The notes under the pieces were generated by a model that worked only from the letters and a program-made list of their open reading frames with translations, ran no database searches and was not told the DNA's origin. A stretch of 64,000 nt of DNA from Flavobacteriaceae bacterium (GTDB lineage Bacteria; Bacteroidota; Bacteroidia; Flavobacteriales; Flavobacteriaceae). Below are positions 1 to 18,780 of this stretch, piece by piece. The stretch is taken from NCBI GenBank assembly GCA_002721275.1, contig PBJZ01000018.1, positions 3,729-67,728 of the forward strand, written 5' to 3'. A program made the translations under genes and the position numbers. Position 1 is the stretch's first letter; each line of letters begins with the position of its first letter.

Positions 1-3000
1 GGTTGTAGAATTTGGTGTTATATCAGTACTTGTAACTGTTCCCGTTGTGGTAGCTAATTCTAGATTGTATGTTCCCCCTGGTGTTTCCGCTTTTAAATAT
101 ATAGCATTGTTAGTTAGATCAGGAATCGCAAATATTGACGAGTTAGAATCTAATCTTGGAACCAAGTCATTGATTATTTGAGTAATACTTGTTTGTCCAG
201 CCTGAACAGGATGATCATAATTTAATTCGTCAATTGTAACAGTTACTTTATCTCCAGCAGAAAAAGTTCCAGATATTGTAATTTTATCTTGTTGAGCAAA
301 ATCAGCGGATTCTAAAACAAAGTTTTTAGCTCCATTACTAATTTCGTAGGTGATATCAATAATATCGTTATCATTACAAACTTCCTGATTATCTGTTCCA
401 GCATCTGATGTAAGCGCAATCTTAGAATTAGGAAGAATACTAATAGCCACAGTTTGTTTTCCCGCCGGACTGCAACTTGTTCCTACAGTAGTAACATCAA
501 AAGTATAGGTCCTTGTACTACTCACTGAATCTGACGGTGATCCAGTTATGGTTACATAATTTTTATTTGTTATATCTCCTGTAACTGTGTCATCTAAAGC
601 AATTGTAGTTGTTGAGGTTAATGATTCAAAACTAAATGCCTTGCCTGGTTGGTCTGCAGTCAATATTATATTAGTACCTGAAGTTGAAGCAGTAATTGGA
701 CTAAGTCTGGTCCCTATTGAATTATTTATTTCATCTACTAATTCTTGTGCAGCTGTCTCACTTGTTATTGATGCATTTGCTATAGTATATTGATAAGAAA
801 TCCCATTAATTTTTATTGTAAATACCTGACCTGCTGGGAGGGTAGTCCCAGAAACATTTGTAGTTTGAACTTGTGCAGTAGTATAAGGTGTCAATGTTAC
901 ACCGGGAGGAAGCCCATTGAGACCTACCAAAGGAGCAACAGTAACAGCTGTAGCGGACCCTTCTACCTCAAGGCGAATTCCATCTATTTTTCCACCCTCA
1001 CATACCGCTTGAACTAATTCACCATTTGTTGTAGTTGATACTGTCTCACCAACAAACAATGTAGTTGTTATTGTTGCAGAATGATTTAATTGCTCTGCCG
1101 GAATTACAGTAATAGTGGCAGACTGAGTGGTTGAGGAAACAGAGCAGCTGGAATTTATATTTCCCATAGTTTCAACTACATATGTGTAGGTCAATGGAGC
1201 ATTAGCAGAAGGGCTTAGTCCTGATAAATCAGGAGAACCTGTAAGTGTTAATAACCCAGTTCCAGAAATATTTTCTCTTGACAAAGTATAACTAGATGTA
1301 CCATTTGAAATAAAAGGAGTCAAAGAGTATCCTTGAATGGGTCCTGCTGCCTTGGCCTCTAGAACAAGTTTCGAACCACTAGATGAAGTGGCTGACACAC
1401 TTGATGATAAATCGTTATTTATTGTTTGTACTAATCTATCAATAAAAGTAATTATAGTCTCTCCAATGACTGTTGATACAGTATAAGTCTTATCATTAAT
1501 CTGTACTCCAAATGTTTCAGAAATAGTTGCAGTAGCAGGTCCAGACCATGTTATCTCGTCAGATTGTTTTGAATCACTATAAGTTTGTGAAAGTCCAGGT
1601 GGAATCTGATCAAAATTACCATTAGTTTGAGTTGTTAAAGAAACTGCCCCACCATATACTTTAAATGAAATTGGAACAATATTAGCATTTTCACATACCT
1701 CTTGAGATGCGGTTGCTGGAGCTGTACCAAGCTCAATAACTGGTGGGCCAAGCAATGTAATTGTTCCTGTTACTGTTGCATGTGGGGTGCATGATGTACC
1801 AGTAGTCTCAATTGTATAATAATATGTTGTAGCAGTCGTAACTGCATCAGGGTCACCTGTGAGCGTAACATAATTATCATTTTCAATATCTCCCGCTACT
1901 GAGCTATCCAGTGAAGATGAATTTGTAGCAGAATTGGCATTAGTAGAAGTAGCCGTATATGAAAATGATACTCCAGGAATATCCGCTGTTAAAACAACTG
2001 TTGTACCTGATACGCCAGCAGTAACTGGACTTGTTCTATTTCCAGTTGCGGTATTAATCTGAGTTAATATACCGAGTGCAACCTCTGAATATGTTTTTGT
2101 AACAGTTGTGGAATAAGTATAATCAACACCATTAATATTTATAACAAACGAATCCCCTTGTGACATGGTTCCGGTTACCTGAACAGTCCTTACCTGAGCC
2201 TTTGAATTTGGGGTTAATGCTATCCCCGGAGGTAGTCCTGAAAAAAGATTGAGTGAAGCAGAGCTAGCGCTAACAGAGGATCCTGAAAGATCTAACCTAA
2301 TTCCAACTAATTCCTCACCCTCACATACTACCTGGTTAAGTAACCCATTAACAGTTGCACTGGTAGTTGCAAATGTAGATGAAACAATTGTTGTAGGGTG
2401 ATTAATCCTTTCTGGTGGTTTTAATTTAAATGAGCCAGTAAAAGTATCCTCATTACAAGAGTAAATATTACCGGTTGAGTTAATTGTAAAATTATAAATA
2501 TTGGTATTGTTCAATGTTACTGAAGGTGTTCCAGAAATAGTTATTATTCCAGTTCCTCTAACTGGGTTAACAGTCATATCAATGGTAGGGTCAGCTGCAA
2601 TAATTACACTTTGTGGTACTCCTATATTTGATCCTGTTACCCTTATTGTACCGCTTGCTGTAATTGTAGCTGAAATACTAGAAGTTAAATCAAGAGTAAC
2701 TGGAACTCCAACTGAACCTGTTCCCGATACCGATGAAGTTATGTTATCTATTGAAGTGCCTATTACTTTTCCAAATAACTTAAATGATCCATTACCAATA
2801 TCCATGGCTTCAACTACATCTTGAATACCAGCTGTATTATTTATTGAACTTGCAATTCCAGTTGCTATTTCAATATTAGTTGTAATAGTTGTAACAGCAG
2901 TAAATATGGCTGAACGAGCAGTATCAGTGGTTAAAGTAACAGTATAGGAATTATTAATTGCTGTTCCTTGACCAGTGATGGTAATTAACTTTACATACTG

Positions 3001-3960
3001 ATTTATTGCACTTGCTACGCCTGTTCTGAGAGTTGATGATGAGGTATTTGGTGATGCAGTATATGTAACCGTATGAGAACCACCTCCGTTAACACTTAAT
3101 GATATACTATAAGTTTCTGTTGAAGAACCAGAATTAGCACCCGAAAAACTTATTTCATCTATTTGATTTAAAGGTGCGAAATTTTGTTGCAATCCAGGAG
3201 GGATTCCTGTTAATCCAGCTAATGGTGGCACGCTGGCACCTGTAGCTCCATTAAAGACCTCAACAGTTAAATCCACAATATCCTCGCCAACACACAATTC
3301 CTGAGCTTCAGTACCTGACGCAGAAGTCTGAGTTAATAAAGACTCTGGCTCAACTATTATATATCCCGATGCTGTTCCTGGTGTACATGAACTTCCGGTT
3401 GTTTGTATAGTAAAATCATATCTTGTTGGTGTAAGAACCGGGGCAGTTGGAGTGCCATCTATTATAAATGAACCCACTCCTTGAATAGGATCTTTGGGAG
3501 TAGACATTGATAAATTTGTGGAATTTTCAAGCAAATTTATACTAAAATAAGATGCCGGATTAATTGCTGTTAATCTAATTGTACCGCTCGTTGTATCTGC
3601 ATCAGCATTAATAATTCTTAATCCATCAGCATTAATTAGGTTTGCAATAGCTTTAGCTACAGCATCTTTATCAGGTGTTCCTGTGACCACATAGTCGTAT
3701 CTCTTTCCAGAGATAAATATTTTAAAGCTTTCTGAGGCTGCTGCATTTCCTCCACCAGACACAGAAACATCATAGACCATATTTGTTGGACTGAATGTTC
3801 CTGTAACTCCGACTGGTAAACCAGTTGTTCCAGAAAGAGCTGGTACGTAGGCTCCAGTAGCTCCCCCAGTAACATTAAATGTAATTGAAACAGGTAAGGA
3901 AGTGTTTACACAAACCTCTTGAACCTCACTTCCTGCAGCTGATGTTTTAGTTAGAGTTTG
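1..3960 (-). repeat. Array of six consecutive [Ig-like + inserted module] units (~195-300 aa each). The sixth is cut by the window edge.
   Basis: The motif Q-[EAV]-[VL]-C opens each unit at residues 2938, 3144, 3467, 3677, 3908 and 4116. Each is followed by G-[LI]-P-x-G, then the inserted module, then x-I-x-G-[TS/D]-P ... Y-x-[FY]-x-[IV]-x-T-x-G-x-x-C. Confidence 0.75.
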
Positions 3961-6900
3961 ATTTGGAGGAACATTGAAAGGAATAGTAACTAATGGGGCT
4001 CCACATCCAGTTGATGTTGCAGTAACATTAACAGTACCTGAAAAATCCGAATTCCATGTTAAAACTCCAGTATCACAATTAATTACCCCAGCGGAGTTAT
4101 TATCAATGGACCATGTAATACTGTTTCCAGATCCTGGATCTGAATAAAATTGAGTTGAAGCAACAGAGCCTGGGCAACTTGGGAGGAAACTACCACCTTG
4201 TACTATTATATCAGTTGGTGTGACTGCCCTACTTGCAATGACTATGCTTTTCGTTGAAACTGGCGATGTTGTGACACCATCACAACCAATTGCAGTAGCA
4301 TTTAAATTAAAGCTTCCATGAAAACCAGAAGTCCAATCCAAGATACCCTGCTGGGTAAAAGTAGTATTTGCCTCATTATCAATAACAGTAAGGGGGCTAC
4401 CAGTTCCTGGACTAACCGAAGATAATGACCAAGTAATGTATTGATAGTCCTCAGATTGAGCAAAAAACTGAGTAGAGGGTGTAGAGTTTGTAATCTCACA
4501 ATTTGGCTGAGCTCCAGTTCTTCTGTTCCAATTTGTTCCACAAACATATGTTGAGTTTGCTACTATCAGTCCTTCATTCAAATTATAAGCAGGAGAAAAG
4601 GCGTTGTTTGGAACAGGAATCCTCTCAAATTCAACAACAAAATTTGTTCCATAATCACTGTATCCAAGATAATCTGCTGTTACATCAAGTCTAGCAGAGG
4701 TTGATCCAGCAGATATACTCGAAGCTGTAACTCCAGCGGAGCCTCTAAAAGTATGTGTAGCACCATTAATTTGATTTAAGAAACTTGTTTTAATATCATT
4801 TGCTGTCGCACTTGCAGTGGATGTGTATTCGTAACATCGTCCATTTATAGTCATTCTGTATACCTCACCAGCAGGTACATTTACTGTACCACCAGAATTA
4901 TTATCAATATATATCCTTGTTTTTTGAAATTGTTCTAAAACACCAGGTTCTGATGGAGTTGATGGAGTTTGCAACGTTGAACTCGCAGAATTTATAGTTA
5001 CTGAATTTAATGTCGCAGCAGTTGAAGAAATAGATGCAGAAATTTTAAAATTTGTAACTGATGAAATACTAGAAGTTACTTTTACGTGAGTATTTCCAAC
5101 ATTAGTTGCTGTTAAACTAAATGGAAAGCTTCCAAAGTTGGAATTAATTAATGTTGTTATTGATTCAACTGTTGCAGCTACGGTAAGAGGAGCTCCTGCA
5201 ACAGTGTATCCCGCAGTAGTTCCATTAACAGTTACAGAAACAACATCTGTAGCAACAACTGGGGCTGAAACAAAAATATGCTCCTGAATTGGATCTGCAG
5301 CAAATACTTCTATATTTTGCGTTTTGGTTCCGGATGGACCATTACACCCAAGTGTTTGAACAGATATGGTAGCAATTCCAATAAAATCAGGATCCCAAGT
5401 CACTTCTCCTGTACTAATATTAATTGTACCAGCACCCGCTGTTAAAGACCATTGTAAACCAGCTGCATTGGATTGTCCACATGCATCAAAATCAGTAATT
5501 TCTGGAGTTCCACAACTTGCTCCATTATAAATTCTAACTCCACCATCATTAATCATTGTTTCATTAGTCAATTGCATATTTCCTGAGACTCCGTCATATG
5601 ATGGGTAATTAGCTATAATATAGTTTGGAGCACCTACTGGTTGATTAACATCAATAACACCACTGATCGATGGGTCAGAACATCCTGCACACCAAATTGG
5701 TGTGATACTCATATTAGAGCCTACTGAAGTTGTTGCTGATTGGGTACTTGTGGTTGAAAATGAAACTTGAGGAGTGTCACCAGAAGAGTATGTTTCTATA
5801 GATAGAACAATACCTCTTTTTTCAGCTTCAATCGTAATTGTTGAACCTGCAACTGTTGAGGATACTAAATCAGTTGCATCCATGAACCCACTTAATTCAG
5901 TAGCAATAGCTGCTGCTCCAACTCCATTTCCTGGAGAACTAACATATGGTACTCCATTTACTACTATAGTATAAACTTCCCCTGTAGTATTTGTTGTTCC
6001 CGTTAAAGCAATTGTCGAAATATCCTGAGCCAAACTATTTTTAAATCCAATAGTATAGGGTGTGTCTTCTTTATGAGCAACTACTGTTATCGTGCCGGCT
6101 GCTGTATCGCCTGTTGCAGCAACACCTGTTGTAGCATTATTTACTCTTGCGTCATTATTTATTGCATTTGTTAGCAAGGTTACCAAACTTGCTACAGTAG
6201 CAGTAGTAGCAGTGACTGTTATGGAAAATGAATTAATTACTACTGTATATAATTCGCCTACATTGGGAGCACCAACTATATTAATTCGATCTTTTTGGTA
6301 TGATTCTGTTTTAACAGTATAAGCTAGTTGACTAGTCGGATTACCAGAAAATCTATAAAGTGTTCCTCCAATTCTACTTACCGTTATACCATTTACTGAA
6401 GCTGTAGCGTCAGCATAAGGTGGCTCTGTTGTGGCCTCATCATTAGATTTACCATTGTCAGATGGATCAATAGAAAATGGAGTAATGACAAGATCAGCAG
6501 TCCCACCAGCTATTTCGAAATCAATAGCTTGTATTGGATCTCCTCTACAAACAGTCTGATCCTTTAATCCACCACTTTGAGTAATTGTTTCAATTGGACT
6601 CACAATTACTGTTGCTGACTCAGAATCTTTAAAACAGGTTGAAGAAGTGGTTTTAATAATTGCAGGTGCTGAAATAGTTGCATTAGCGCCGCCTCCTAAG
6701 GTTCTGGTAATTGTAATTGCAGTTCCAGCTACTTTCCCTCTAATATCAATAGTACCATTTTGATAATCGTATGCTTCGACTACGTCCCTAATACCCGTTG
6801 TGGTATTGATTGCATTTGCAATACCTTCAGTAATTTTGGAATTTAATGTTACTGTTGTTAATGTTGTAAAAGTTGCCGAAGTAGTTCCTCCCGCAGCAAC

Positions 6901-9900
6901 ACTAATTTTATAGGTTTCTCCAATTGCAGCTCCGTTCCCTGAAACAGAAATCCTTTGAACGGGGTAAATATTATAGGTGTTAGTTGATCTTATTCTAAAA
7001 TATGATGTTTGAGTAAGAGGTGTTGCAGGATCAAGAGTTGTTGTATTTACATTGTTATATCCACCTGCTAGAATTGAAAAATTTTCATTATCTGTTGATC
7101 CATACCACTGATTAGTAATTGTTCCGAAATTTGGAGAATTTGATACACCCGTAGCAGATATATCAATTGGCGTCGAACCTGAGCAAATCGTTTGATTTGC
7201 AACAGTGTTTGCCTTATTAATATCATCGATTACTGAAATTAACACAGAACTTGTAGTCGCACTACATATGTTTGGAGTTGAATCAATTGCTGTCATGGAT
7301 GCGGTACCACCAGTGCCATTGGAATCTGCATACGTATAAGTGGTTCCTGAAACTTTTGGAGTTAATGTTATTACTCCATTTACATTTGCAGCGCTAACAG
7401 GTAAAGATGTATCCGCTGTAATTGATGCAACAAGGGCAGCAGCTTTTGTAGTAGTAGTTGTACCTGTTGTAACAGTCACTGCTGTTCCATTTATTATCAT
7501 TGAAAAAGCCTTTCCAGTTCCAACATCTCCAGTAATTGTTATTTGATCTATGTTATCGACAACAGAGGAAATAGCTTGTCTTCTATAATAAAGTGATGAG
7601 ATTAATGCACCAGGTGGTTGATAGGAAGCCGAAGTAGCATTTTGAATATTGGTCCAATTAATATTATTGGTTGATACCTGCCACTGATAAGTAACTGCAC
7701 CATTAACAGATGTAGCATCTTTGACACTTAATAATTGATTTGGAATAGTATTGTAACATATAAACTCAGGCATGGCAATCTGTCCAACGTCGAAAGCATT
7801 TACGGTTACTTTATGTACTTCAGAAGGAACCTCACAATTAATTACTCCTCCTGAAACTCTTTGTGTCATTCTTCTGTAGTATGAAGTTTGAGTTACAACA
7901 CCAACACTAAAGCTTACACCTGTAGCCCCAGGAATATCTTCCCAGTTACTATTATCAATTGAAATCTCCCACTGATATTCAATACCACTGGCAGGTGCGG
8001 TTGATCCTGTGACTGATAAAGCAGTTGGGACGGCTGATGGATTTGAGGGGTCATAACAAAAAACTTGGTTGTTACCACTATTTATTATTCCACCTTGTAA
8101 AGGGTCTACAGTAATAGTCCCACTAATTTGAGCTTCACTACAACCATTAAAATTAGATAAAGTTCTAACTGTATAGGTATATATTGTTGTTATTATATCC
8201 GTTGTACTTGGTGTGCCTGATATCCTGAAAATGCCACCCCCGACATAATTTCCAACCACTCCATTAGGAAGACCATCTACAACTAAAGCTGTAGGAGGGT
8301 TTACTGTTGCACTGACTGATCCTATTATATTATAAGTTATGGTTGTGATAGCAGAATTATTACAAACAGTTTGCGTACTTGTTCCTGCTGCAGATGTTAA
8401 AGTAATTGTTGAAGCAGCACTGACAGCAATCGTTCCACTTAAAGAGTCATTGACTGAACACTCATTAGCTCCTGTGGTAGAAATTGTATAGCTAAATACT
8501 TGGGAAGCTACACCAGAATTTATTGTCCCACTAATAATAATTTGATTTGTATTGGAAGTTGTTATAGAGTTAGTCATTCTAGAATTTCCTGCTGTACCTC
8601 CAAGGTTAACTCCAAACGGTACACCTAGACTCTTTGAAGTAAGCCTAATAGCATGATCCCCAATTTTAGTAACAGTAACACTTGCAGATGCACTCCCATC
8701 AATTGCAGTAAACAAACCATCTCTAATCGTTTCTGATGTGTTTCCAGTTATCGCAGCAAAAGAATACATAGTTCCATTAACCCCTATTATATACGATCCA
8801 CTAACAGCACCGGTAACTGTAACTGTATTAGATTGAGCTAATTTATTTGAATTTGCACTAACACCTGGGGGAAGAGTAAGGGGTATAGTAGGGCTTATTT
8901 GAGTGGCGCTTCCTTTTAATTCATAAGTGATAGATTCAATAGCACTTCCAGCACAAACTATTTGAGTAGTATAAGAAGCTGCTGAGGAAAGCTCGATAAC
9001 TTCTGCTGGCTCGACGGTAATAATTCCTGTTCTAACAACTTCAGGACACCCGGAAGAACCAGAACTACTAACACTATAGTTAAATATTGTAGTATATGGA
9101 ATAGTCACACTTGGAGTTCCTGTAATTATAAATTTCTTTGTAGTGCTTGAATACTGCCCTGTAACCCCAGTTGGTAATCCATCAATGACCATAGTTGGGT
9201 CAGTAACTTGAGCTCCAGTCCCTCCTCCTCCAAGAGTGTAGGTTATAGAAGATATGGCAGAGTTATTACAAACTGTCTGAGAATCAGAATTTGCAACTCC
9301 CGTATTAGTTAATACCAAAGTAGAAGATTCTTTAAGTGTTATTGTTCCTGTTAAGGAACTTGTGACTGTGCAGGTAGGACTACCTCCTGCATAAGTTGTT
9401 ATGGAATAAGTATACGTTGCAGCAGTTACACTCGAATCAAGTGTACCTTGAATACGATACCTATTTGTATTTGAAGTAACTGAAGTATTAGTCATATTAA
9501 CTGATCCAGCCCATGCATCGTAGTCATCACCAATATTAACCTTGAAAGGAGTTCCTGCAACTTTAGCAGTCAAATCAAAAGCAGTAGATCCGTTATTAGA
9601 AACATTGACAGGAACTGTTCCACTACCACTAATAGCTGCAACTAATCCATTTCTAATTTGATTTGCTGTACTTGTATTACTATCTCCAAAACTGAAAACC
9701 TCTCCATTAATAGCAAGTCTGTGTGTTCCAGTTGCAGCCCCAGAAATATTAATTGTGTTTACCTGCGCAACCTTAAGGTGATTAGCAGTAATTCCAGCAG
9801 GAAGACCCATAGTTGATGCTAGGGTTGGACTAATTGTAATTGCACTGCCAGTTAAATCATAAACTATATCGGTTATTGCTACTGATGGATCACACACATC

Positions 9901-12732
9901 TTGTGCAGCAATAGAAGGCGAAGAAACTAAAGTGATAACTTGCTCAGGAGCTACACTGATTGTTCCATTGACTGTCGCTTCTGTGCAACCACCGGAATTT
10001 CCGCTGGTTGTAATTGTATAAGTAAACTCTGTATCAGTAAGTAATGTGAGTGAAGGAGTTCCTGATATAGTCAAAATACCACCTGAAAAAGCACTTGTAA
10101 CTCCTGGAGGAAGACCATCAACAACTAAAGCAGTGGGCGAAGAAACCGTAGCACCTGTGGCACCTAAAATATCGTAAGTTATAGAGGTAATTGCGGAGTT
10201 AACACACACAGATTGACTGTTAGTAGATCCACCTGATGTTAATGAAACAGTTGATGTAGGTTTTACAGTAATAGTTCCTACAGTAGATGAATTTGTTGAA
10301 CAAATACTTGCTCCTGTAGTTGAGATTGTATATGAATAAACACCTGGAGTTTCACTCAAACTGACAGTTCCAAATACCTCAATTTTATTTAAATTAGGAG
10401 TGATATTTGAAGTGCTCATATTTGCGGACTGAGTTCCACCCAGGGTTACTGCTGAAAAAGATAATCCTGGTGTATCTGCAGTTAGATTAATTCCTGTCGT
10501 TCCGCTTGTGGATGCGCTAACTAAAGATATTCCATCATTTTGAATTAATGTAAGTAATCCGTTTCTTATATCTTGTGCAGAGCTTGAACCTGTTGCATTA
10601 AAAACATAAGCTCTACTATTAATAAATAATTTATATGAGCCTTGAGCTGCAGAAGTAATTTTTATTGTATTTACTTGAGCTTGGGTTGTTTGTAGAACTT
10701 GAAGTCCATCTGGAAGTCCAATTTCTGATACAACTGTAGGGCTTATTGTGGTTGCAGAAACACTTCCTCCACTAAGATTATAAGTAATTGTTGCAATTGA
10801 TGATCCTACACAAATATTCTGTGCTGTAGGTCCAGAATCATATGTAATAGATTCTGGAGATTCAACAATTATGAAAACCGGATCTGTATACTTTTCACAC
10901 TCATGACCCTTGTAAGTTGAAATTGCTGCTCTTCGATAATAACTGCTCTCAAATAGATTTGGTGGCTGATAATTTTGGGTGTAAACCCCGACATTACTGT
11001 AATTATCTCCATCAGTAGATTTTTCCCATCTGTATGTTAATGAAGCCGTTAATCCTAAACTAGGACTCGTACCAGTAATATTTGATGGCGCATTACCATA
11101 ACATATCGTTTGATTGGATGATAACGTTCCAGCATCTGATATATTATTTAAATCAACTGAAATATAAATCTCAGAAGAACATCCAGTCCCACTGGAACCC
11201 GTAAAGCCTGTAACTTTTATCACATTACCATTTTGAAAAGAACTAAATGTTGTAGTACTTGCGGTTGTCGTTGATCCTCCAAGAACTTGAAAGGTGTAGG
11301 ATGTTGCACCTGATGCCTGAATAACTTGTGTCGAACCCTCACATATTACAATACCCTGACTACCCTTTAATCTTTCGACTCCAATTAGAGCTCCACTGTT
11401 TGCATCAGAGGATGATGTGATTACAGAAAAAGCTGACCCGGCAGAGGGATTTGTTATAGTTAAAAATGCAGAAGATCCATCTCCTCCTCCATCAACGATA
11501 GTATAACCACTACCTGCTAAATTTGTAACCAAGGCATCGATTGCAAGATTTGCAGCAGTAATAGTATTTGAAGACGTATAAGTAGTTCCAGTTGTTGTAA
11601 TTGAAAATGTATCGCCCGCATCAATACTTCCTGAAATAGTAATTTTATATGATTCATTGTCATTAAATAAAGTAAATCCTGTTCCAGATACAGTTATGGA
11701 TGAACCAGAATCTTCAGGTGTCAAGTTAACATCGACTGATATTGGATAAGTCTGTCTTTCACATCCATTAGAATCGGTCAACTTTGCATAAATTACATAA
11801 TCTGTTTTACTATTTCTAGTAAAGTTTTGATTTGAAGTTGATCCAGTTGCACTACCATTATTAACATAAAAATTATATGAAACCCCTCCACTTGTATTAA
11901 AGTCTATCGATTCATCACTACAAATCTCCACAAATTGTGAACCAGCAATAACATTTGGAGAATCAAAATTAAGTGTTCCAGATGAGGATGCAGAGTAATT
12001 AAAAGATGTACCGGAGTTAACCCCGGTAATTCTAATTATCCTTTTGGTAGCAGCACCAGATGGTGCTCCAGCATTATTAGCATCATAAGCTGCGTCTGCA
12101 TTTATTAAAGAGGCCAATGCAGTAGCAATATTTTCAGCAGATCTTGAGGTTGATGCTGTGACTGTATGAGTATAAGTAGTACCACTTAAAGTAATAGAAT
12201 AACTCTCCTCTGAAGAGCCAGTTGTTGATGTACCTATGAGTATTTCAACTATTTGTTGTCTTGGAGTTTGACTTAAACCTGGAGTATTTAGTGGAGATGC
12301 TGTTCCTCTTGTTACAGTAATTTCCGCAACTTTAGAATCTATTATAGTTCCAGGAGAATCATCAAAATAAACCTCTGCTGTAACAGTATTCGGTCCAGGA
12401 TTGATCATTGATATAGTTTGCGTAACAGTAAATGAAGTTTGAGACTGAACATCAGAAGCAGGCATATCTTTATAATATGTTGCTGAGTTAGTTCCTATTA
12501 CTGTGATTTTTAGTGTCGCAGAAGATGTTGTTAGTGTAACTGCTGAGGTATTTGTAAAAACAGTACCAAAATCATAATTTATTGTAGGGCAAGCATCAGG
12601 AATCGTTGGAGAGGGAACTGCAACTCCTTGGAAAGAATCTATTCTAATGTCTTGTGCAAAAAGACATATCGGAGATAATAATATTATACCAATACATAAT
12701 ATGTGTTTAATAAAACTTTTCAAAATTCTCAC
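1..12732 (-). CDS. Giant secreted cell-surface repeat protein, N-terminal 4,244 codons only (the 3' end lies beyond position 1). It is a mosaic of Ig-like (He_PIG-like / PKD-like) modules and a recurrent uncharacterised ~85-95 aa module.
   Basis: I translated the minus strand manually, line by line, in the frame aligned to position 1. None of the 4,244 plus-strand triplets is tta, cta or tca, so the minus strand has no stop codon. An upstream in-frame TAG at 12744-12742 bounds the 5' end. The start is GTG 12732-12730 (alternative TTG 12741-12739), and there is no in-frame ATG before codon 90. The N-terminus reads [34 protein letters not shown], a signal peptide. The last codons in the window read ...[20 protein letters not shown]. 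The ORF is missing from the supplied track, probably because it has no stop codon inside the window. Confidence 0.9.
   Translation of the reverse strand, partial: [4244 protein letters not shown]
3973..5697 (-). other. Central Cys-rich region with three modules carrying an [IL]-[TQ]-W-S-[LI] ... G-x-[LV]-[TD]-W-x-x-x-F-x-G ... G-C-x-G signature (5308-5697, 4228-4560, 3973-4200). They are interleaved with two copies of the uncharacterised module.
   Basis: Translations: [137 protein letters not shown]. Confidence 0.6.
7555..8100 (-). repeat. Two tandem PKD-like/Ig-like modules with the Bacteroidota-typical I-C-x-G/Y ... Y-[QR]-W ... W ... Y-Y-R-R signature. Further copies lie at 10861-11127 and 6973-7221.
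   Basis: Translations: ...[10 protein letters not shown]...[42 protein letters not shown]...; ...[11 protein letters not shown]...[42 protein letters not shown]...; also ...[10 protein letters not shown]...[18 protein letters not shown]...SSYYRRAAI (residues 536-624) and ...[10 protein letters not shown]...[14 protein letters not shown]...TSYFRIRS (residues 1838-1920). Confidence 0.7.
8101..10860 (-). repeat. Three tandem protein-level super-repeats (~305 aa, ~920 nt each). Each is [Ig-like module carrying an inserted ~95 aa module] + [plain Ig-like module].
   Basis: The Q-x-[IV]-C-x-x-S-[AI]-I-x-x-I-x-Y motif recurs at residues 640/944/1257 (inserted type) and 841/1152/1454 (plain type). 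The Cys pairs are 641-811, 947-1121 and 1260-1425 in the inserted type, and 843-916, 1155-1229 and 1457-1531 in the plain type. Copies are diverged, roughly 35-45% identical by eye, and are not near-identical at DNA level. Confidence 0.8.
12655..12732 (-). other. Predicted Sec signal peptide of the giant protein (residues 1-26, cleavage after LFA)
   Basis: The N-terminus is basic (R2, K5, K9), followed by the hydrophobic core [15 protein letters not shown] and then A/QD. The call is by eye; no predictor was run. Confidence 0.6.
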
Positions 12733-12886
12733 CTGATACAACTACTCTTTTACAACCAACAATTAATAACAATTATTATTTAAAAGAGTAATTTATTCAT
12801 ATATAGTAAAGTTATGTAAATTATGTTAACAATAATCTAATTTGTTAAATCAATTATTTTATAAAATTTTACACTAATTTAATTAG

Positions 12887-13363
12887 GTGAAAAAAATTAA
12901 ACTATTATTAATTATAACTTTTTTAATTGGATGTTCAAGGACACAAGACTCTATAAATGATTTTGAAATTCTGAAAAAACTATATGAGAATACATTGAGA
13001 AACGAATATTTAATTGATTCAATTATTACATACAAAGGGCCTTCAAATTTTAAGAATATTTCTATTGATTTTGATGTTTATCAAGTTATTTATAAACAAA
13101 AAAATGGAAACAAGGGAAGTAAATTCTATACATTAACTAAAAATGAAATTTTTAGACTTGGTAAAGGCCTTAATTGTGTAATAATTAGTAATGAAAAAAG
13201 ATGGAAAAAAACAGGTGAAAGAATTACTTCATTAAAATCATGGATTATTAATAATCAAGAAGAAAATTTTATAGATAAACCAATAAATAATTTAAAATCA
13301 TTGTCACATAATTCTGATAAGGATGATCTACCTGAAAATTTAAAAAAAGTAATTTGTAACTAA
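12887..13363 (+). CDS. Small lipoprotein of unknown function
   Basis: Track ORF of 158 aa with a GTG start. The N-terminus MKKIKLLLIITFLIGC has a lipobox Cys. I recognise no family. Confidence 0.6.
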   Translation: MKKIKLLLIITFLIGCSRTQDSINDFEILKKLYENTLRNEYLIDSIITYKGPSNFKNISIDFDVYQVIYKQKNGNKGSKFYTLTKNEIFRLGKGLNCVIISNEKRWKKTGERITSLKSWIINNQEENFIDKPINNLKSLSHNSDKDDLPENLKKVICN

Positions 13364-14340: not shown

Positions 14341-15576
14341 TTAATATCTGATATTTTCACTTGGTGAAAATCTGTTTATTATTTTTGTTGGGAACCACAA
14401 CAAAAATAAACAAATAAAAGCCATAAATAAATTAACAAAAATCCAATCAAAAAAATCCAATTTTACAGGGGCGTAATTAATGTAGTAGGTAATTGGGTCC
14501 AGCTTGATCCACTTAAAGTATTTTTGAGAAAAATAAAATCCAAGACCAAGTATATTTCCATAAATAAGTCCTTTGGTGATTATCTGGAATCCGTTCCACA
14601 AAAATACTTTTTGAATTAAGAAATCAGTTGCACCAATTGTTTTTAAAATACCTATCATTTGTGTTTTCTCAAAAATTAGAATCATTAAAGCTGTCGCAAC
14701 GTTAACTACACCAACTAAAGTCATTATAACTAAAATTATATATATATTAAAATCGAAAAGTGAAATCCATTGAAATATATTCTCATATTTTGACCTGATA
14801 GTTATCACATCAAGGTTAGATGGTAATAAATCGTACAACTTCTTTGCTAAAAAATTATCTTTTTTCTTATCATTAATATAGACCTCAACTCCTCCAACTT
14901 GATCCTTTGACCATGAATTTATGGACTGAACCTGAGATATATCTCCAAAAATATAAATATCATCGAAATCAAAAAATCCTGAATCGTAAATTCCAACTAT
15001 TATAAATTTTCTCTGACTTGGTATTGCTTGATAATTATTTTTTTTAAAGTATATAACCACCTTTTCGTCAATGCTCACATCGAGTTTTCTGGATAATGTT
15101 TTAGAAATTAATATTTCTTTTTTTTTTTTTGTTGAAGTGTTGATAAATCTACCCTCAACAATAAAATCATTAAAATTTGAATTGATGTATGTTTTAGGAT
15201 CAACACCTTTAAAAATAATTCCCTCAAAATTAGCTTTATTCCTTATCAATCCCCCTTTGTATGCGATTCTTTGAAAACTTGATACATCGTTTAGATTTTT
15301 TAATACAGATTCTTCTTTATTTTCAAATTCAAATGGATTAGATGAAAATTGAGAATTATTATTATCAAAAGTTGAAATAATCAAATTACCATTGAAAGCG
15401 TATACTTTTTTTCCAATTTCCTCTTGGAGCCCCTTACCAGCGACTACAGATATAATTATTGCAGTAACACTCAATGTTAGAGCTAATATTGCTACTTTTA
15501 TTATTCGTGAGGAAATATTACTGTTTAAAGAATTATTATTTTTTAATGTGTTACCTAAAAAGTAAATTAAATTCAA
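14341..15576 (-). CDS. FtsX/LolC/LolE-family ABC transporter permease
   Basis: 411 aa. It has an N-terminal TM segment, a large periplasmic loop and a C-terminal 3-TM FtsX-like region (ILKTIGATDFLIQKVF...). Confidence 0.75.
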   Translation of the reverse strand: MNLIYFLGNTLKNNNSLNSNISSRIIKVAILALTLSVTAIIISVVAGKGLQEEIGKKVYAFNGNLIISTFDNNNSQFSSNPFEFENKEESVLKNLNDVSSFQRIAYKGGLIRNKANFEGIIFKGVDPKTYINSNFNDFIVEGRFINTSTKKKKEILISKTLSRKLDVSIDEKVVIYFKKNNYQAIPSQRKFIIVGIYDSGFFDFDDIYIFGDISQVQSINSWSKDQVGGVEVYINDKKKDNFLAKKLYDLLPSNLDVITIRSKYENIFQWISLFDFNIYIILVIMTLVGVVNVATALMILIFEKTQMIGILKTIGATDFLIQKVFLWNGFQIITKGLIYGNILGLGFYFSQKYFKWIKLDPITYYINYAPVKLDFFDWIFVNLFMAFICLFLLWFPTKIINRFSPSENIRY

Positions 15577-17898: not shown

Positions 17899-18780
17899 AT
17901 GGCTTGGTTAAAATTTCTTGATAATTCGTTTGATAATATTTTTTCTGATAAAAGGAGATCTATAATAGAAAGGTATACTTTATTTACATCAATTTTAGGT
18001 TTTATAATTCATCTAATTTTAATTTATTTGAATAACTATAATATGCTAAATATTAGCTTTTCAGGAAGCCTCTTAGATGATCCAATTTCTGCGATTTACA
18101 CTCCATTTTCAATTATACTATTTTACGAGACATATCTGCTGATATACTATCTTCCTGGATCTTTTACTACAGCAATCTCAAAACAGTTCGAAATAATCTC
18201 TTTGATTGTAATAAGAAAAATATTTAGTGATATTCCCAAGATAAATCTCAATGCAAACTGGCTTGAAAACAGTCCAAATTTGCAGCTAATATATGACCTT
18301 TTAGGAATACTAATTTTATTTTTTTTAATCTATCTGTTCAACCTAAGAAAAGAAAAAAATCCGGTTAAACCCATAACTGACTCAATCAAAAGATTTATTT
18401 CGACAAAAAAGGGTGTTAGCATCATTTTGTTGCCATTGTTAATCATAATGTCAATTTATAGTGTAAGTAATTGGATTTACGAAATATATTTAGTGAATGA
18501 AAATGTAAAATCAATAAACGTCTCCAATATAAATTCAGTTTTTTATAATGAGTTTTTTACAATTCTTATTTTAGCTGATGTTTTCATTTTATTACTCTCA
18601 TTCCAATATACCGAGAAGTATAGCCAACTTATAAGAAATACTGGCTTTGTGATTTGTACAATACTAATAAGACTTTCTTTTGCTGCCAAGGGCATAACAA
18701 ATATTTTATTAATTGTATCTAGTGTACTTTTTGGTCTAATTATTCTTAGAATTTATCAAGCTTTTGAAAAAAATATTTAA
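17899..18780 (+). CDS. Polytopic membrane protein, unknown function
   Basis: 293 aa with about 6 hydrophobic segments. The start lies 3 nt after the VOC stop. I recognise no family. Confidence 0.55.
   Translation: MAWLKFLDNSFDNIFSDKRRSIIERYTLFTSILGFIIHLILIYLNNYNMLNISFSGSLLDDPISAIYTPFSIILFYETYLLIYYLPGSFTTAISKQFEIISLIVIRKIFSDIPKINLNANWLENSPNLQLIYDLLGILILFFLIYLFNLRKEKNPVKPITDSIKRFISTKKGVSIILLPLLIIMSIYSVSNWIYEIYLVNENVKSINVSNINSVFYNEFFTILILADVFILLLSFQYTEKYSQLIRNTGFVICTILIRLSFAAKGITNILLIVSSVLFGLIILRIYQAFEKNI

What the first reader, a model, noticed from the sequence alone, without database searches (positions are those of the whole stretch)
1..12732. Giant (>4,244 aa) secreted repeat protein hidden from the ORF track
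The track lists only 60-107 aa plus-strand ORFs across the first 12.7 kb. Reading the minus strand in the frame aligned to position 1 gives 4,244 consecutive sense codons.

- The frame is bounded upstream by TAG at 12744-12742.
- It begins at a non-ATG start, GTG 12732 (or TTG 12741).
- It opens with a classical signal peptide, VRILKSFIKHILCIGIILLSPICLFA/QD.
- The stop codon lies beyond the left edge of the window.

The sequence is dominated by T, S, G, I, N, A and V, with few charged residues. Cysteines occur mostly in module-bracketing pairs, as expected for an extracellular, disulfide-stapled fibre or adhesin. One gene occupying 20% of a 64-kb window in an otherwise tightly streamlined housekeeping region is a large investment.

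The module content (see the separate findings) is only partly explicable by families I know.
Basis: partly seen in the sequence, partly recalled or inferred. Interest (0 to 1): 0.85.

Follow-up and report, generated by a model that had tools for sequence, protein, structure and literature searches.

The report
Giant surface fibre with flagellin-type modules
The first 12.7 kb of the window is the front two-thirds of a real 6,499-codon gene for a giant secreted cell-surface fibre of a marine flavobacterium: it belongs to the known SprB-like class, but this part matches no protein-family model and is built largely from a domain otherwise found on the outside of flagella and phage tails.

Summary
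The minus-strand frame is open for 4,247 codons from TAG 12744-12742 to the window edge (chance about 1e-130). It is conserved under strong purifying selection (dN/dS 0.08). It is intact in independent assemblies. On a near-identical TARA Oceans scaffold the gene is called at 6,499 aa.

In an 87-89% identical relative the gene continues about 2,160 aa past the point where the window ends. That extension holds SprB repeats, a PKD-like stretch and a type-B T9SS sorting domain. A PorP/SprF-family gene follows 3 nt after the stop.

The in-window 4,244 aa have no Pfam or NCBIfam match at all. I resolved them into four module types. The dominant one, module B, is about 80 aa with 18 copies covering 32% of residues. 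It is a remote, full-domain relative of the "Flagellin hook IN" motif. Module B also occurs in hook proteins, flagellins, FlgL and FliD, and it resembles the outer domain of phage tail sheaths. Nine copies sit at one fixed loop of a disulfide-bracketed all-beta module.

The partner protein lacks the Cys-x-Cys tail that SprF needs for gliding, so a static adhesive fibre is somewhat more likely than a gliding adhesin. Verdict: a real gene, and a new variant of a known kind.

The parts
1..12741 (-). In-window part of the giant gene, cut by the window edge. Open frame from the stop at 12744-12742. Start codon is TTG 12741, GTG 12732 or TTG 12723. About 2,258 further codons lie beyond position 1.
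12655..12732 (-). Putative Sec signal peptide, aa 1-26: (V/M)RILKSFIKHILCIGIILLSPICLFA|QD.
   Evidence: Read directly from the sequence. No predictor was run.
12253..12654 (-). N-terminal (cell-distal) region, aa 27-160. Beta-rich, not assigned to any module.
11995..12237 (-). Module B copy 1 (aa 166-246), Flagellin_IN-like domain
11422..11646 (-). Module B copy 2 (aa 363-437)
10450..10668 (-). Module B copy 3 (aa 689-761), nested in a split module A
9538..9756 (-). Module B copy 4 (aa 993-1065), nested
8608..8826 (-). Module B copy 5 (aa 1303-1375), nested
7330..7545 (-). Module B copy 6 (aa 1730-1801)
6709..6954 (-). Module B copy 7 (aa 1927-2008)
6049..6288 (-). Module B copy 8 (aa 2149-2228)
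5797..6015 (-). Module B copy 9 (aa 2240-2312)
5041..5280 (-). Module B copy 10 (aa 2485-2564)
4681..4899 (-). Module B copy 11 (aa 2612-2684)
3538..3771 (-). Module B copy 12 (aa 2988-3065), nested
2992..3156 (-). Module B copy 13, partial (aa 3193-3247)
   Evidence: 19 bits only
2743..2988 (-). Module B copy 14 (aa 3249-3330)
1957..2187 (-). Module B copy 15 (aa 3516-3592), nested
1333..1557 (-). Module B copy 16 (aa 3726-3800), nested
628..864 (-). Module B copy 17 (aa 3957-4035), nested
61..285 (-). Module B copy 18 (aa 4150-4224), nested. The C-half of its host module lies beyond the window edge.
9940..10257 (-). Module A, uninterrupted copy (aa 826-931). All-beta, about 105 aa, with a Cys pair.
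9001..9321 (-). Module A, uninterrupted copy (aa 1138-1244)
8095..8415 (-). Module A, uninterrupted copy (aa 1440-1546)
10255..10839 (-). Split unit A-N | B | A-C (aa 632-826). This is the unit modelled with AlphaFold2.
9322..9939 (-). Split unit A(B)A (aa 932-1137)
8416..9003 (-). Split unit A(B)A (aa 1244-1439)
3343..3960 (-). Split unit A(B)A (aa 2925-3130). The cleanest split: HMM positions 2-63 | B | 60-106.
2416..3342 (-). Split unit carrying one partial and one full B (aa 3131-3439)
1753..2364 (-). Split unit A(B)A (aa 3457-3660)
1093..1740 (-). Split unit A(B)A (aa 3665-3880)
433..1038 (-). Split unit A(B)A (aa 3899-4100)
1..426 (-). Split unit A(B)A cut by the window edge (aa 4103-4244). 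Its C-half is seen in the relative L001.
10885..11112 (-). Module C copy 1 (aa 541-616), 'C...Y.W..S.D..W..I...YYRR'
7831..8067 (-). Module C copy 2 (aa 1556-1634)
7525..7767 (-). Module C copy 3 (aa 1656-1736)
6934..7194 (-). Module C copy 4 (aa 1847-1933)
5308..5484 (-). Module D copy 1 (aa 2417-2475), '...W..D..G...V.A...CG'
4246..4428 (-). Module D copy 2 (aa 2769-2829)
3973..4155 (-). Module D copy 3 (aa 2860-2920)

Best explanation
The region encodes the N-terminal 4,241-4,247 residues of a roughly 6,500-aa cell-surface fibre of an uncultured marine Flavobacteriaceae bacterium.

Proposed route:
1. A Sec signal peptide takes the protein to the periplasm.
2. [quoted passage not shown]
3. 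After translocation the C-terminus stays bound to a cognate PorP/SprF-family outer-membrane barrel encoded immediately downstream. The in-window part therefore projects away from the cell.

The in-window part is a string of beta-rich modules. Its main building block is an all-beta module of about 105 aa closed by a conserved Cys pair. In nine of its twelve copies found in the window, this module carries an ~80-aa beta4-alpha-beta2 domain (module B) at one fixed loop, so B domains stick out sideways from the rod like a bottle-brush.

Module B is homologous to the surface-exposed variable domains of flagellar hook, filament, junction and cap proteins (the Flagellin_IN type). It has the fold of the outer domain of contractile phage tail sheaths. 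I infer that the array of 18 B domains in the window (23 on the composite protein) gives a multivalent, low-charge, Thr/Ser-rich binding surface for particles, polymers or other cells.

What is shown: the gene is real and under selection; its modular anatomy; the homology of module B; and, in a close relative, the type-B CTD and the SprF-like partner. What is inferred: export, anchoring, orientation, the disulfides, and adhesion as the function.
For: - Gene reality: open frame with P about 1e-130; dN/dS 0.081 over 2,907 codons; the same gene called at 6,499 aa on a near-identical TARA scaffold, with SprB as its only precomputed Pfam hit.
- C-terminus in the relative L001: SprB repeat 38.7 bits (cut-off 28); CHU_C 27.5 bits (cut-off 27); PKD_4 20 bits, below its cut-off of 27. 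Of 24 C-terminal homologues, 23 carry precomputed PKD and/or CHU_C hits.
- Partner gene: a PorP_SprF ORF (67.2 bits, cut-off 22.3) starts 3 nt after the stop. [quoted passage not shown]
- Modules: 18 B copies, 3 intact A copies, 4 C and 3 D.
- Nesting: an HMM built from the intact A copies matches as two halves flanking B at a fixed position. There is an invariant Cys pair.
- Model: AlphaFold2 of one A(B)A unit gave pLDDT 81.6 and pTM 0.71, with B as beta4-alpha-beta2.
- Module B homology: the profile finds 1,823 proteins at E<=1e-3 among 1.84 billion. Of the top 150, about 43 are FlgE, flagellin, FlgL or FliD (the families confirmed by Pfam on sampled members). An HMM built only from flagellar segments recovers 14 window copies, E 3.8e-98 at Z=1.84e9.
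- Fold: Foldseek top hits are phage tail sheaths. 8kee_C scores E 1.6e-5 with rmsd 2.2 A over 96 columns. Flagellins and FliD D2-D3 also appear. BFVD again returns tail sheaths.
Against: - The CTD and the SprF-like gene were seen only in an 87-89% identical relative, not in the window's own genome. CHU_C there is barely above its cut-off, and NCBIfam gave no hit.
- No signal-peptide predictor was run.
- The model of an isolated module A was poor (pLDDT 54.6), so its 'Ig-like' fold and the geometry of the insertion rest on sequence splitting and one model.
- Pfam's own Flagellin_IN model detects none of the window's copies.
- There is no expression or binding evidence. Adhesion is argued by analogy only.
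Confidence: 0.75

Rival explanations
1. It is the true orthologue of the gliding adhesin SprB. The fibre would be dragged along the cell surface by the GldJKN track through its SprF partner and would power gliding motility.
For: - Size: 6,499 aa, close to the 669-kDa, highly repetitive SprB (PMC9143113).
- Shared parts: SprB repeats, a type-B CTD, and a PorP/SprF gene directly downstream.
- No porE-like gene next to the SprF-like gene; the next gene is a gamma-glutamyltranspeptidase. PMC9143113 proposes that this layout marks mobile type-B adhesins.
Against: - The SprF-like partner has no cysteine at all. The Cys-x-Cys tail of SprF is invariant in close homologues and is required for the disulfide to GldK and for gliding (PMC12635249).
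- No sprC/sprD-like genes lie upstream. The neighbours are a divergently oriented 158-aa ORF with no family match and a PLP-dependent enzyme gene, followed by other housekeeping genes.
- No gld or spr genes occur anywhere in the 64-kb window.
- The N-terminal two-thirds show no SprB repeats.
- The host is a low-GC planktonic lineage recovered from open-ocean metagenomes.
Confidence: 0.2
2. It is a non-adhesive surface coat or spacer. A dense layer of long, low-charge fibres would act as a physical shield against phages, grazers or fouling, or would alter drag and sinking, with no specific ligand.
For: - Low charge (K+R 3.5%, D+E 7.1%) and a Thr/Ser/Gly-rich surface.
- No recognisable lectin, CBM or enzyme domain anywhere in the protein.
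- In flagella and phage sheaths the homologous domains are outer decorations.
Against: Nothing excludes it. Strong purifying selection across all modules fits either role. Known giant type-B CTD proteins with a studied function are adhesins (PMC9143113, PMC12635249).
Confidence: 0.15
3. It is an artefact: a chimeric assembly across repeats, or a decaying pseudogene whose long frame is not expressed.
For: Repetitive genes are prone to misassembly. The MAG relative L001 carries 46 ambiguous bases, all inside this gene.
Against: - The repeats are diverged (21-57% identity), which is too low to cause assembly collapse.
- Three independent assemblies agree base for base over 7-10 kb.
- A relative with dS about 1 keeps the frame open over 15.7 kb, with dN/dS 0.08.
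Confidence: 0.02

Closest known systems
SprB, the gliding motility adhesin of Flavobacterium johnsoniae (a type-B CTD T9SS substrate anchored by SprF)
   Same: [quoted passage not shown]
- SprB repeats (PF13573) in the C-terminal third, a type-B CTD, and a PorP/SprF-family gene directly downstream.
- No adjacent porE-like gene.
   Different: - The N-terminal 4,244 aa have no SprB repeats or any Pfam match.
- The partner lacks the Cys-x-Cys tail (PMC12635249).
- There is no sprC/sprD-like upstream context.
- A direct sequence comparison with Fjoh SprB could not be made, because the sequence was not retrievable with these tools.
Flagellin hook IN motif domain (Pfam PF07196), e.g. the beta-domain of Sphingomonas A1 flagellin p5 (PDB 2ZBI)
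   Same: - Module B is profile-homologous to the variable outer domains of FlgE, flagellins, FlgL and FliD.
- It has Ile at the key helix-end position in 14 of 17 copies and the Ile-Asn pair in 9-10 of 17. That pair defines the motif (PMC9751261).
- PF07196 is the commonest Pfam match among module-B segments from other proteins, and it lies inside a module-B match in P0012.
- 2ZBI appears among the fold hits (rank 47).
   Different: - PF07196 recognises only 6 of 58 family segments and none of the window's copies.
- Module B is a whole domain of about 80 aa rather than a 55-aa motif.
- Here it sits in a T9SS adhesin of a phylum that generally lacks flagella (general knowledge). It is present in 18-23 copies rather than 1-5 and is nested in another module.
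Outer (surface) domain of contractile phage tail sheath proteins (cyanophage A-1(L) 8KEE; Milano 8FOY; Mu 9KHY; 7-7-1 9RKU)
   Same: These are the best structural matches to the modelled unit. 8kee_C scores E 1.6e-5 with rmsd 2.2 A over 96 columns. A BFVD sheath protein aligns at rmsd 2.2 A over 106 columns. There is a weak sequence-profile hit to the Mu sheath, E 0.007.
   Different: No sheath core domains are present. The similarity is limited to a single decoration domain, and sequence identity is only 15-22%.
Other type-B CTD proteins anchored by PorP-like proteins (e.g. P. gingivalis PG1035; 11 further F. johnsoniae proteins)
   Same: The same export and anchoring logic: a CTD-B plus an adjacent cognate PorP-like barrel (PMC9143113).
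   Different: Those described as non-mobile have a porE-like gene next to the porP-like gene. Here there is none.

Membership tests
T9SS type-B CTD substrate (SprB class) | N-terminal Sec signal peptide | tested here: met
   Read directly from the sequence: K-containing n-region, hydrophobic core ILCIGIILLSPICLF, LFA|QD. By inspection only; no SignalP run.
T9SS type-B CTD substrate (SprB class) | C-terminal type-B sorting domain (Pfam CHU_C PF13585 / TIGR04131) | tested here: met
   Not in the window, because the gene is cut. In the 87-89% identical relative L001, CHU_C scores 27.5 bits against a cut-off of 27. In the family member P0130 it scores 34.3 bits. Most of the 24 C-terminal homologues carry precomputed PF13585. 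NCBIfam gave no hit at E<=0.01, so the match is marginal.
T9SS type-B CTD substrate (SprB class) | Cognate PorP/SprF-family outer-membrane protein gene adjacent | tested here: met
   L001 15767-16783 starts 3 nt after the stop and scores 67.2 bits on PF11751 against a cut-off of 22.3. Seen in the relative only.
T9SS type-B CTD substrate (SprB class) | SprB repeats (PF13573) | tested here: met
   L001 C-terminal third scores 38.7 bits. It is the only precomputed Pfam hit of the 6,499-aa product on the near-identical scaffold. There are none in the in-window 4,244 aa.
SprB orthologue (track-driven gliding adhesin) | SprF partner with a periplasmic Cys-x-Cys tail that disulfide-links to GldK (PMC12635249) | tested here: not met
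   The SprF-like protein of L001 has 0 cysteines in 338 aa.
SprB orthologue (track-driven gliding adhesin) | sprC-sprD-sprB-sprF operon context (from my knowledge of F. johnsoniae) | tested here: not met
   Upstream of the start lie a divergent 158-aa ORF with no family, then a PLP-dependent enzyme and an FtsX/MacB permease.
SprB orthologue (track-driven gliding adhesin) | No porE-like gene beside the porP-like gene (proposed mark of mobile adhesins, PMC9143113) | tested here: met
   The next gene in L001 is a gamma-glutamyltranspeptidase.
SprB orthologue (track-driven gliding adhesin) | Sequence similarity to Fjoh SprB along the whole length | not tested
   The F. johnsoniae SprB sequence could not be retrieved. 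The CTD-region search returned only unnamed marine fragments.
SprB orthologue (track-driven gliding adhesin) | Gliding machinery (gldJ/K/L/M/N) in the genome | not testable with these tools
   None in the 64-kb window. The rest of the genome is not available.
Flagellin_IN domain (PF07196) | Match to the Pfam model at its gathering score | tested here: not met
   There were 0 hits on the whole protein, on 500-aa tiles at E<=10, and on 5 isolated copies at E<=1. Among 53 homologous segments from other proteins, 6 match, best E 9.6e-5.
Flagellin_IN domain (PF07196) | Central Ile-Asn pair (PMC9751261) | tested here: met
   Ile in 14 of 17 copies and Ile-Asn in 9-10 of 17 at the end of the single helix.
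Flagellin_IN domain (PF07196) | Homology to the variable regions of flagellar axial proteins | tested here: met
   A window-only profile hits FlgE proteins at E down to 1e-37 and flagellins, library-wide. The reciprocal flagellar-only HMM scores E 3.8e-98, with the caveat that its segments were chosen using the window profile.
Flagellin_IN domain (PF07196) | Fold of the reference structure 2ZBI beta-domain | tested here: inconclusive
   2zbi_A is hit at rank 47, E 0.021, probability 0.93, TM 0.31. The better matches are phage sheath outer domains.
Phage tail sheath protein | Sheath core domains (e.g. Phage_sheath_1 / 1C) | tested here: not met
   No Pfam hits. The similarity is confined to the outer decoration domain.

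The most novel reading that the evidence does not exclude
Module B defines a largely unannotated, promiscuous 'filament-surface' domain superfamily that has been exchanged between three unrelated extracellular machines: flagellar axial proteins, contractile phage tails, and T9SS fibres of a generally non-flagellated phylum. In this protein, nesting it at a fixed loop of a disulfide-stapled beta-module has produced a previously undescribed bottle-brush fibre. Its 23 side domains would carry a shared function, such as glycan binding or lateral self-association, that also explains why flagella and phage sheaths carry the domain.
Probability: 0.3. Interest if true: 0.6.

Novelty: new variant of a known kind. 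Interest (0 to 1): 0.45.

Why it matters
Giant T9SS surface proteins are among the largest investments that marine Bacteroidota make. This one takes up about 19.5 kb in a streamlined, low-GC genome, next to the ribosomal protein operons. Yet their extracellular parts are mostly blank in annotation.

This work shows that 4,244 residues with no family match resolve into four module types. It also ties the dominant module, by sequence profile and by fold, to the outer domains of flagella and phage tail sheaths. That gives three things:
- a usable domain definition for a family found in at least 1,823 protein clusters, of which Pfam's motif model detects only about a tenth in a 58-segment sample;
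- a concrete structural hypothesis for how such fibres are built (a rod with side domains);
- a testable criterion for separating gliding adhesins from static fibres in uncultured Flavobacteriaceae (whether the SprF tail has cysteines).

It does not change the picture of T9SS biology.

Tried and rejected
- The whole-protein search of the annotated protein database timed out.
- Word-indexed searches were nearly blind to this protein. One A(B)A unit found only a 146-aa fragment, and the module-B profile found nothing. The exhaustive HMMER search was needed.
- The CTD-region search meant to pull in a named SprB returned only unnamed marine fragments. I therefore could not test whether canonical SprB has modules A or B.
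- AlphaFold2 of an isolated, uninterrupted module A gave pLDDT 54.6. I did not fold-search it, and I do not claim an Ig fold as shown.
- The JGI names 'phage tail sheath gpL-like' for P0004 and P0006 are not backed by Pfam sheath domains. P0006 starts with a signal-peptide-like sequence. I treat those two as unclassified multi-B proteins, not as sheaths. The sheath link rests on Foldseek only.
- I expected the Thr/Ser-rich surface to be rich in the Bacteroidota O-glycosylation sequon. It is depleted instead, so I dropped glycosylation as a supporting argument.
- The weak Pfam hits on the tiles (WWE_4, DUF5587, FlgD_tudor and others, all far below their cut-offs) were dismissed as noise.
- The sequence search of PDB chains with the whole protein gave nothing.
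Full report
**1. The observation**

Residue numbers count from GTG 12732; residue i starts at window position 12732-3(i-1).

Translating the reverse complement of 1-12750 in the frame aligned to position 1 gives one stop (TAG, 12744-12742). After it come 4,247 uninterrupted sense codons to the window edge. The other five frames over the same span contain 177-444 stops each, and none is open for more than 108 codons. From the base composition of the strand a stop is expected at 0.068 per codon, so an open run of this length has a chance probability of about 10^-130.

Candidate starts are TTG 12741, GTG 12732 and TTG 12723. There is no in-frame ATG near the 5' end.

The gene is 37.3% GC in a 32.4% GC window.

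The gene is missing from ORF listings only because ORFs that run off the end of the source are not listed (and the tool's description).

**2. Is it a real gene, and how long is it?**

The adjacent 158-aa gene led to a 140,553-bp TARA Oceans scaffold, L002. It differs from the window at 8 of 20,477 positions. The gene caller there gives the giant gene a product of 6,499 residues starting at the TTG that corresponds to window 12723. About 2,258 codons therefore lie beyond the window.

A second independent assembly, L003 (GCA_001757525.1), has 42 mismatches in 10,356 nt. It keeps the frame open to its contig end.

A more distant relative is L001, a MAG labelled Flavobacteriaceae bacterium SAT168. 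It is 89% identical on the query segment and 87% overall. It keeps one frame open for 15.7 kb. Over 2,907 aligned codons dS is about 1.0, dN is 0.081 and dN/dS is 0.081.

This is a functional coding gene under strong purifying selection. It is not a shadow frame, a pseudogene or an assembly chimera. The internal repeats are only 21-57% identical, too diverged to collapse an assembly.

**3. The missing C-terminus and the neighbours**

In L001 the protein continues about 2,160 residues past the point where the window ends. That part contains:
- SprB repeats (PF13573, 38.7 bits against a cut-off of 28);
- a PKD-like stretch (PKD_4, 20 bits, below its cut-off of 27);
- a CHU_C type-B T9SS sorting domain at the C-terminal end (27.5 bits against a cut-off of 27).

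NCBIfam gave no hit, so the CTD match is marginal in L001. It is clearer in family members. P0130 scores 34.3 bits, and most of the 24 closest C-terminal homologues, all marine metagenome fragments, carry precomputed PF13585 and PKD hits.

Three nucleotides after the stop begins a 338-aa ORF with a signal peptide. It is a clear PorP/SprF family member (67.2 bits against a cut-off of 22.3). Type-B CTD proteins are secreted by the T9SS and held on the surface by their cognate PorP-like barrel, as shown for SprB-SprF and PG1035-PorP (PMC9143113).

Upstream of the start the window holds only unrelated genes: a divergent 158-aa ORF, a PLP-dependent enzyme, an FtsX/MacB permease, NamZ and a radical-SAM protein. 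The rest of the window holds the ribosomal protein operons, SecY, EF-G, enolase, citrate synthase, BamA, PNPase, sigma-70 and FtsZ. No gliding or T9SS genes are present in the 64 kb.

**4. Anatomy of the in-window 4,244 residues**

Pfam and NCBIfam return nothing for the whole protein. Pfam also returns nothing meaningful for ten overlapping 500-aa tiles at E<=10. The PDB sequence search is likewise empty.

Self-comparison and iterated HMMs built from the protein itself resolve 73% of the residues into four module types.
- **Module B**, about 75-82 aa, has 18 copies and covers 32% of the residues. Its consensus is 'vdtItIsGtv.aGe.YtItINGttYtYtvt...taetIatgLvtaINnd.....vsAs..ggtItLTAkvaGtsFs'.
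- **Module A**, about 105 aa, is all-beta. Its pattern is 'Q.VC...aI..ItY.l.G.tGa.v....GLP.Gv......l.IsGTP......YtytitT.G..C....GtItV.P'.
- **Module C** has 4 copies with the pattern 'C...Y.W..S.D..W..I...YYRR'.
- **Module D** has 3 copies.

Only three A copies are uninterrupted. An HMM built from those three alone matches the other copies as two separate halves on either side of a B module, always at the same place. An example is aa 2925-2986 (HMM 2-63) | B 2986-3068 | aa 3086-3130 (HMM 60-106). Module B is therefore a domain inserted into one fixed loop of module A, after the GLPxG segment. This holds in eight complete units and in a ninth that is cut by the window edge.

A Cys near the start of A and another near its end are invariant in every aligned unit. 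That fits a disulfide closing the host module around the insert, but the disulfide is inferred.

AlphaFold2 on one A(B)A unit, with the seven in-window units as the alignment, gave pLDDT 81.6 and pTM 0.71. In that model B is four strands, one helix and two strands, and A is all-beta. A model of an isolated A copy was poor (pLDDT 54.6), so 'Ig-like' remains an inference.

On a composite of the window plus the L001 extension there are 23 B matches, including one in the SprB-repeat region.

**5. What module B is**

A profile of 17 in-window copies was searched exhaustively against 1.84 billion representative proteins. It found 1,823 proteins at E<=1e-3, 318 at E<=1e-10 and 23 at E<=1e-30, many with multiple copies.

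Among the best 150 hits (sampled members checked against Pfam):
- about 28 are flagellar hook proteins (FlgE);
- about 10 are flagellins;
- 4 are FlgL-like;
- 1 is a FliD cap protein.

In these proteins the module forms the variable, surface-exposed middle.

A further 8 of the top 150 belong to an NHL-repeat family. Only 2 end in a type-B CTD (P0060 and P0130), and these also have SprB repeats. Seven contain module A.

An HMM built only from 124 segments of the flagellar proteins recovers 14 of the window's copies at 23-44 bits each. The full-sequence E-value is 3.8e-98 when scaled to the whole library. The caveat is that those segments were originally picked with the window profile.

Pfam's 'Flagellin hook IN motif' (PF07196) is the commonest Pfam match among module-B segments, but it detects only 6 of 58 and none of the window's copies. 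In P0012 it lies inside a module-B match. The motif's hallmark is a central Ile-Asn pair (PMC9751261). In the window's copies it is present in 9-10 of 17, with Ile in 14 of 17.

By fold, the best PDB matches of the modelled unit are the outer domains of contractile phage tail sheaths. Cyanophage A-1(L) 8kee_C scores E 1.6e-5 with rmsd 2.2 A over 96 columns. The Milano, Mu and 7-7-1 sheaths follow, then flagellins (H. pylori FlaA, 2ZBI, FliC D2/D3) and FliD D2-D3. The viral predicted-structure library again returns tail sheaths. The A2 sequence profile weakly hits the Mu sheath (E 0.007).

Module B is therefore a remote, whole-domain relative of the Flagellin_IN type of filament-surface decoration domain. 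Here it is used 18-23 times in a T9SS fibre.

**6. How it most likely works**

*Shown:* the gene, its selection, its modules, the homology and fold of B, and (in a close relative) the CTD-B and the SprF-like neighbour.

*Inferred:*
- Sec export through the N-terminal signal peptide.
- T9SS translocation through the CTD.
- Retention on the PorP/SprF-like barrel, with the N-terminal two-thirds (the window part) pointing outward.
- A rod of beta-modules with B domains projecting sideways.
- Multivalent adhesion to particles, polymers or cells.

*Mobile or static?* The evidence is mixed. There is no porE-like gene beside the porP-like gene, which PMC9143113 proposes as the mark of mobile adhesins. 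Against that, the SprF-like protein has no cysteine at all. The Cys-x-Cys tail of SprF is invariant in its close homologues and is required for the disulfide to GldK and for gliding (PMC12635249). There is also no sprC/sprD context.

I favour a statically anchored adhesive fibre at about 0.55 of the total probability. A track-driven gliding adhesin gets about 0.2 and a non-adhesive coat about 0.15.

**7. Comparison with what is known, and novelty**

By class this is a SprB-type, type-B-CTD T9SS giant surface protein, which is a known kind.

It differs in three ways. Its distal two-thirds lack SprB repeats and any other annotated family. They are built from a Flagellin_IN-like domain nested in a second module. 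Its partner lacks the gliding cysteines.

In the held literature 'Flagellin_IN' appears in only 11 papers, and none of the ten listed has a title or abstract dealing with T9SS. I could not retrieve F. johnsoniae SprB to test whether it shares modules A and B. That is the main gap.

I rate this a new variant of a known kind, of moderate interest. It is a solid piece of domain discovery and a useful annotation handle, not a new system.

Noticed in passing
window 1-12732 (minus strand protein): The Bacteroidota general O-glycosylation sequon D-[ST]-[AILVMT] is about three-fold depleted. There are 7 occurrences against 22.5 +/- 4.0 in 500 residue shuffles, although the protein is 28% Ser+Thr. This could reflect avoidance of periplasmic glycosylation before T9SS export, or simple neighbour-residue bias.
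   Followed up: partly
P0002 (QVL45097.1, Methylophilaceae MAG, 3,353 aa); P0003; P0004; P0006: Proteins outside Bacteroidota consist mostly of module B, with 10-28 copies covering 56-67% of their length. JGI labels two of them 'phage tail sheath gpL-like', but Pfam finds no sheath domain in the one scanned (P0006), which begins with a signal-peptide-like sequence. The label was probably transferred through this decoration domain.
   Followed up: partly
P0012, P0016, P0036, P0046, P0063, P0070, P0076, P0097: A separate family of secreted proteins shares a conserved C-terminal end ('...FGS.t.F.I.SN.V.F...') and 3-6 module-B copies. The one member scanned against Pfam (P0012) has NHL repeats. 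Function unknown.
   Followed up: no
L001 683-12641: The MAG relative has 46 ambiguous bases, all inside the giant gene, with the densest run at L001 9237-9374. This suggests strain-level polymorphism in this gene within the binned population.
   Followed up: no
window 6934-8067 and 10885-11112 (module C): Module C ('Y.W..S.D..W..I...YYRR') has no Pfam hit here. In the Bacteroidota relatives P0130 and P0060 the Y_Y_Y domain (PF07495) scores 27.4 and 21.7 bits. I did not check whether those matches fall on a module-C-like segment, so calling module C a divergent Y_Y_Y-type beta-sandwich is only a lead.
   Followed up: no
window 12887-13363 (+) and 17899-18780 (+): Two conserved ORFs next to the giant gene (158 aa and 293 aa) have no Pfam family. 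The 158-aa gene is divergently oriented from the giant gene and shares a 142-nt AT-rich intergenic region with it.
   Followed up: no
window 15474-15576: The mechanical ORF for NamZ (ATG 15474, 429 aa) overlaps the FtsX/MacB gene by about 100 nt. The assembly's gene caller uses a later start, giving 391 aa and no overlap. This is an ORF-listing artefact only.
   Followed up: yes
window 1-12741 versus the whole window: The giant gene is about 5 points richer in GC than the window (37.3% against 32.4%). That is expected from its Thr/Ser/Gly/Ala-rich codon usage and is not by itself evidence of foreign origin.
   Followed up: no
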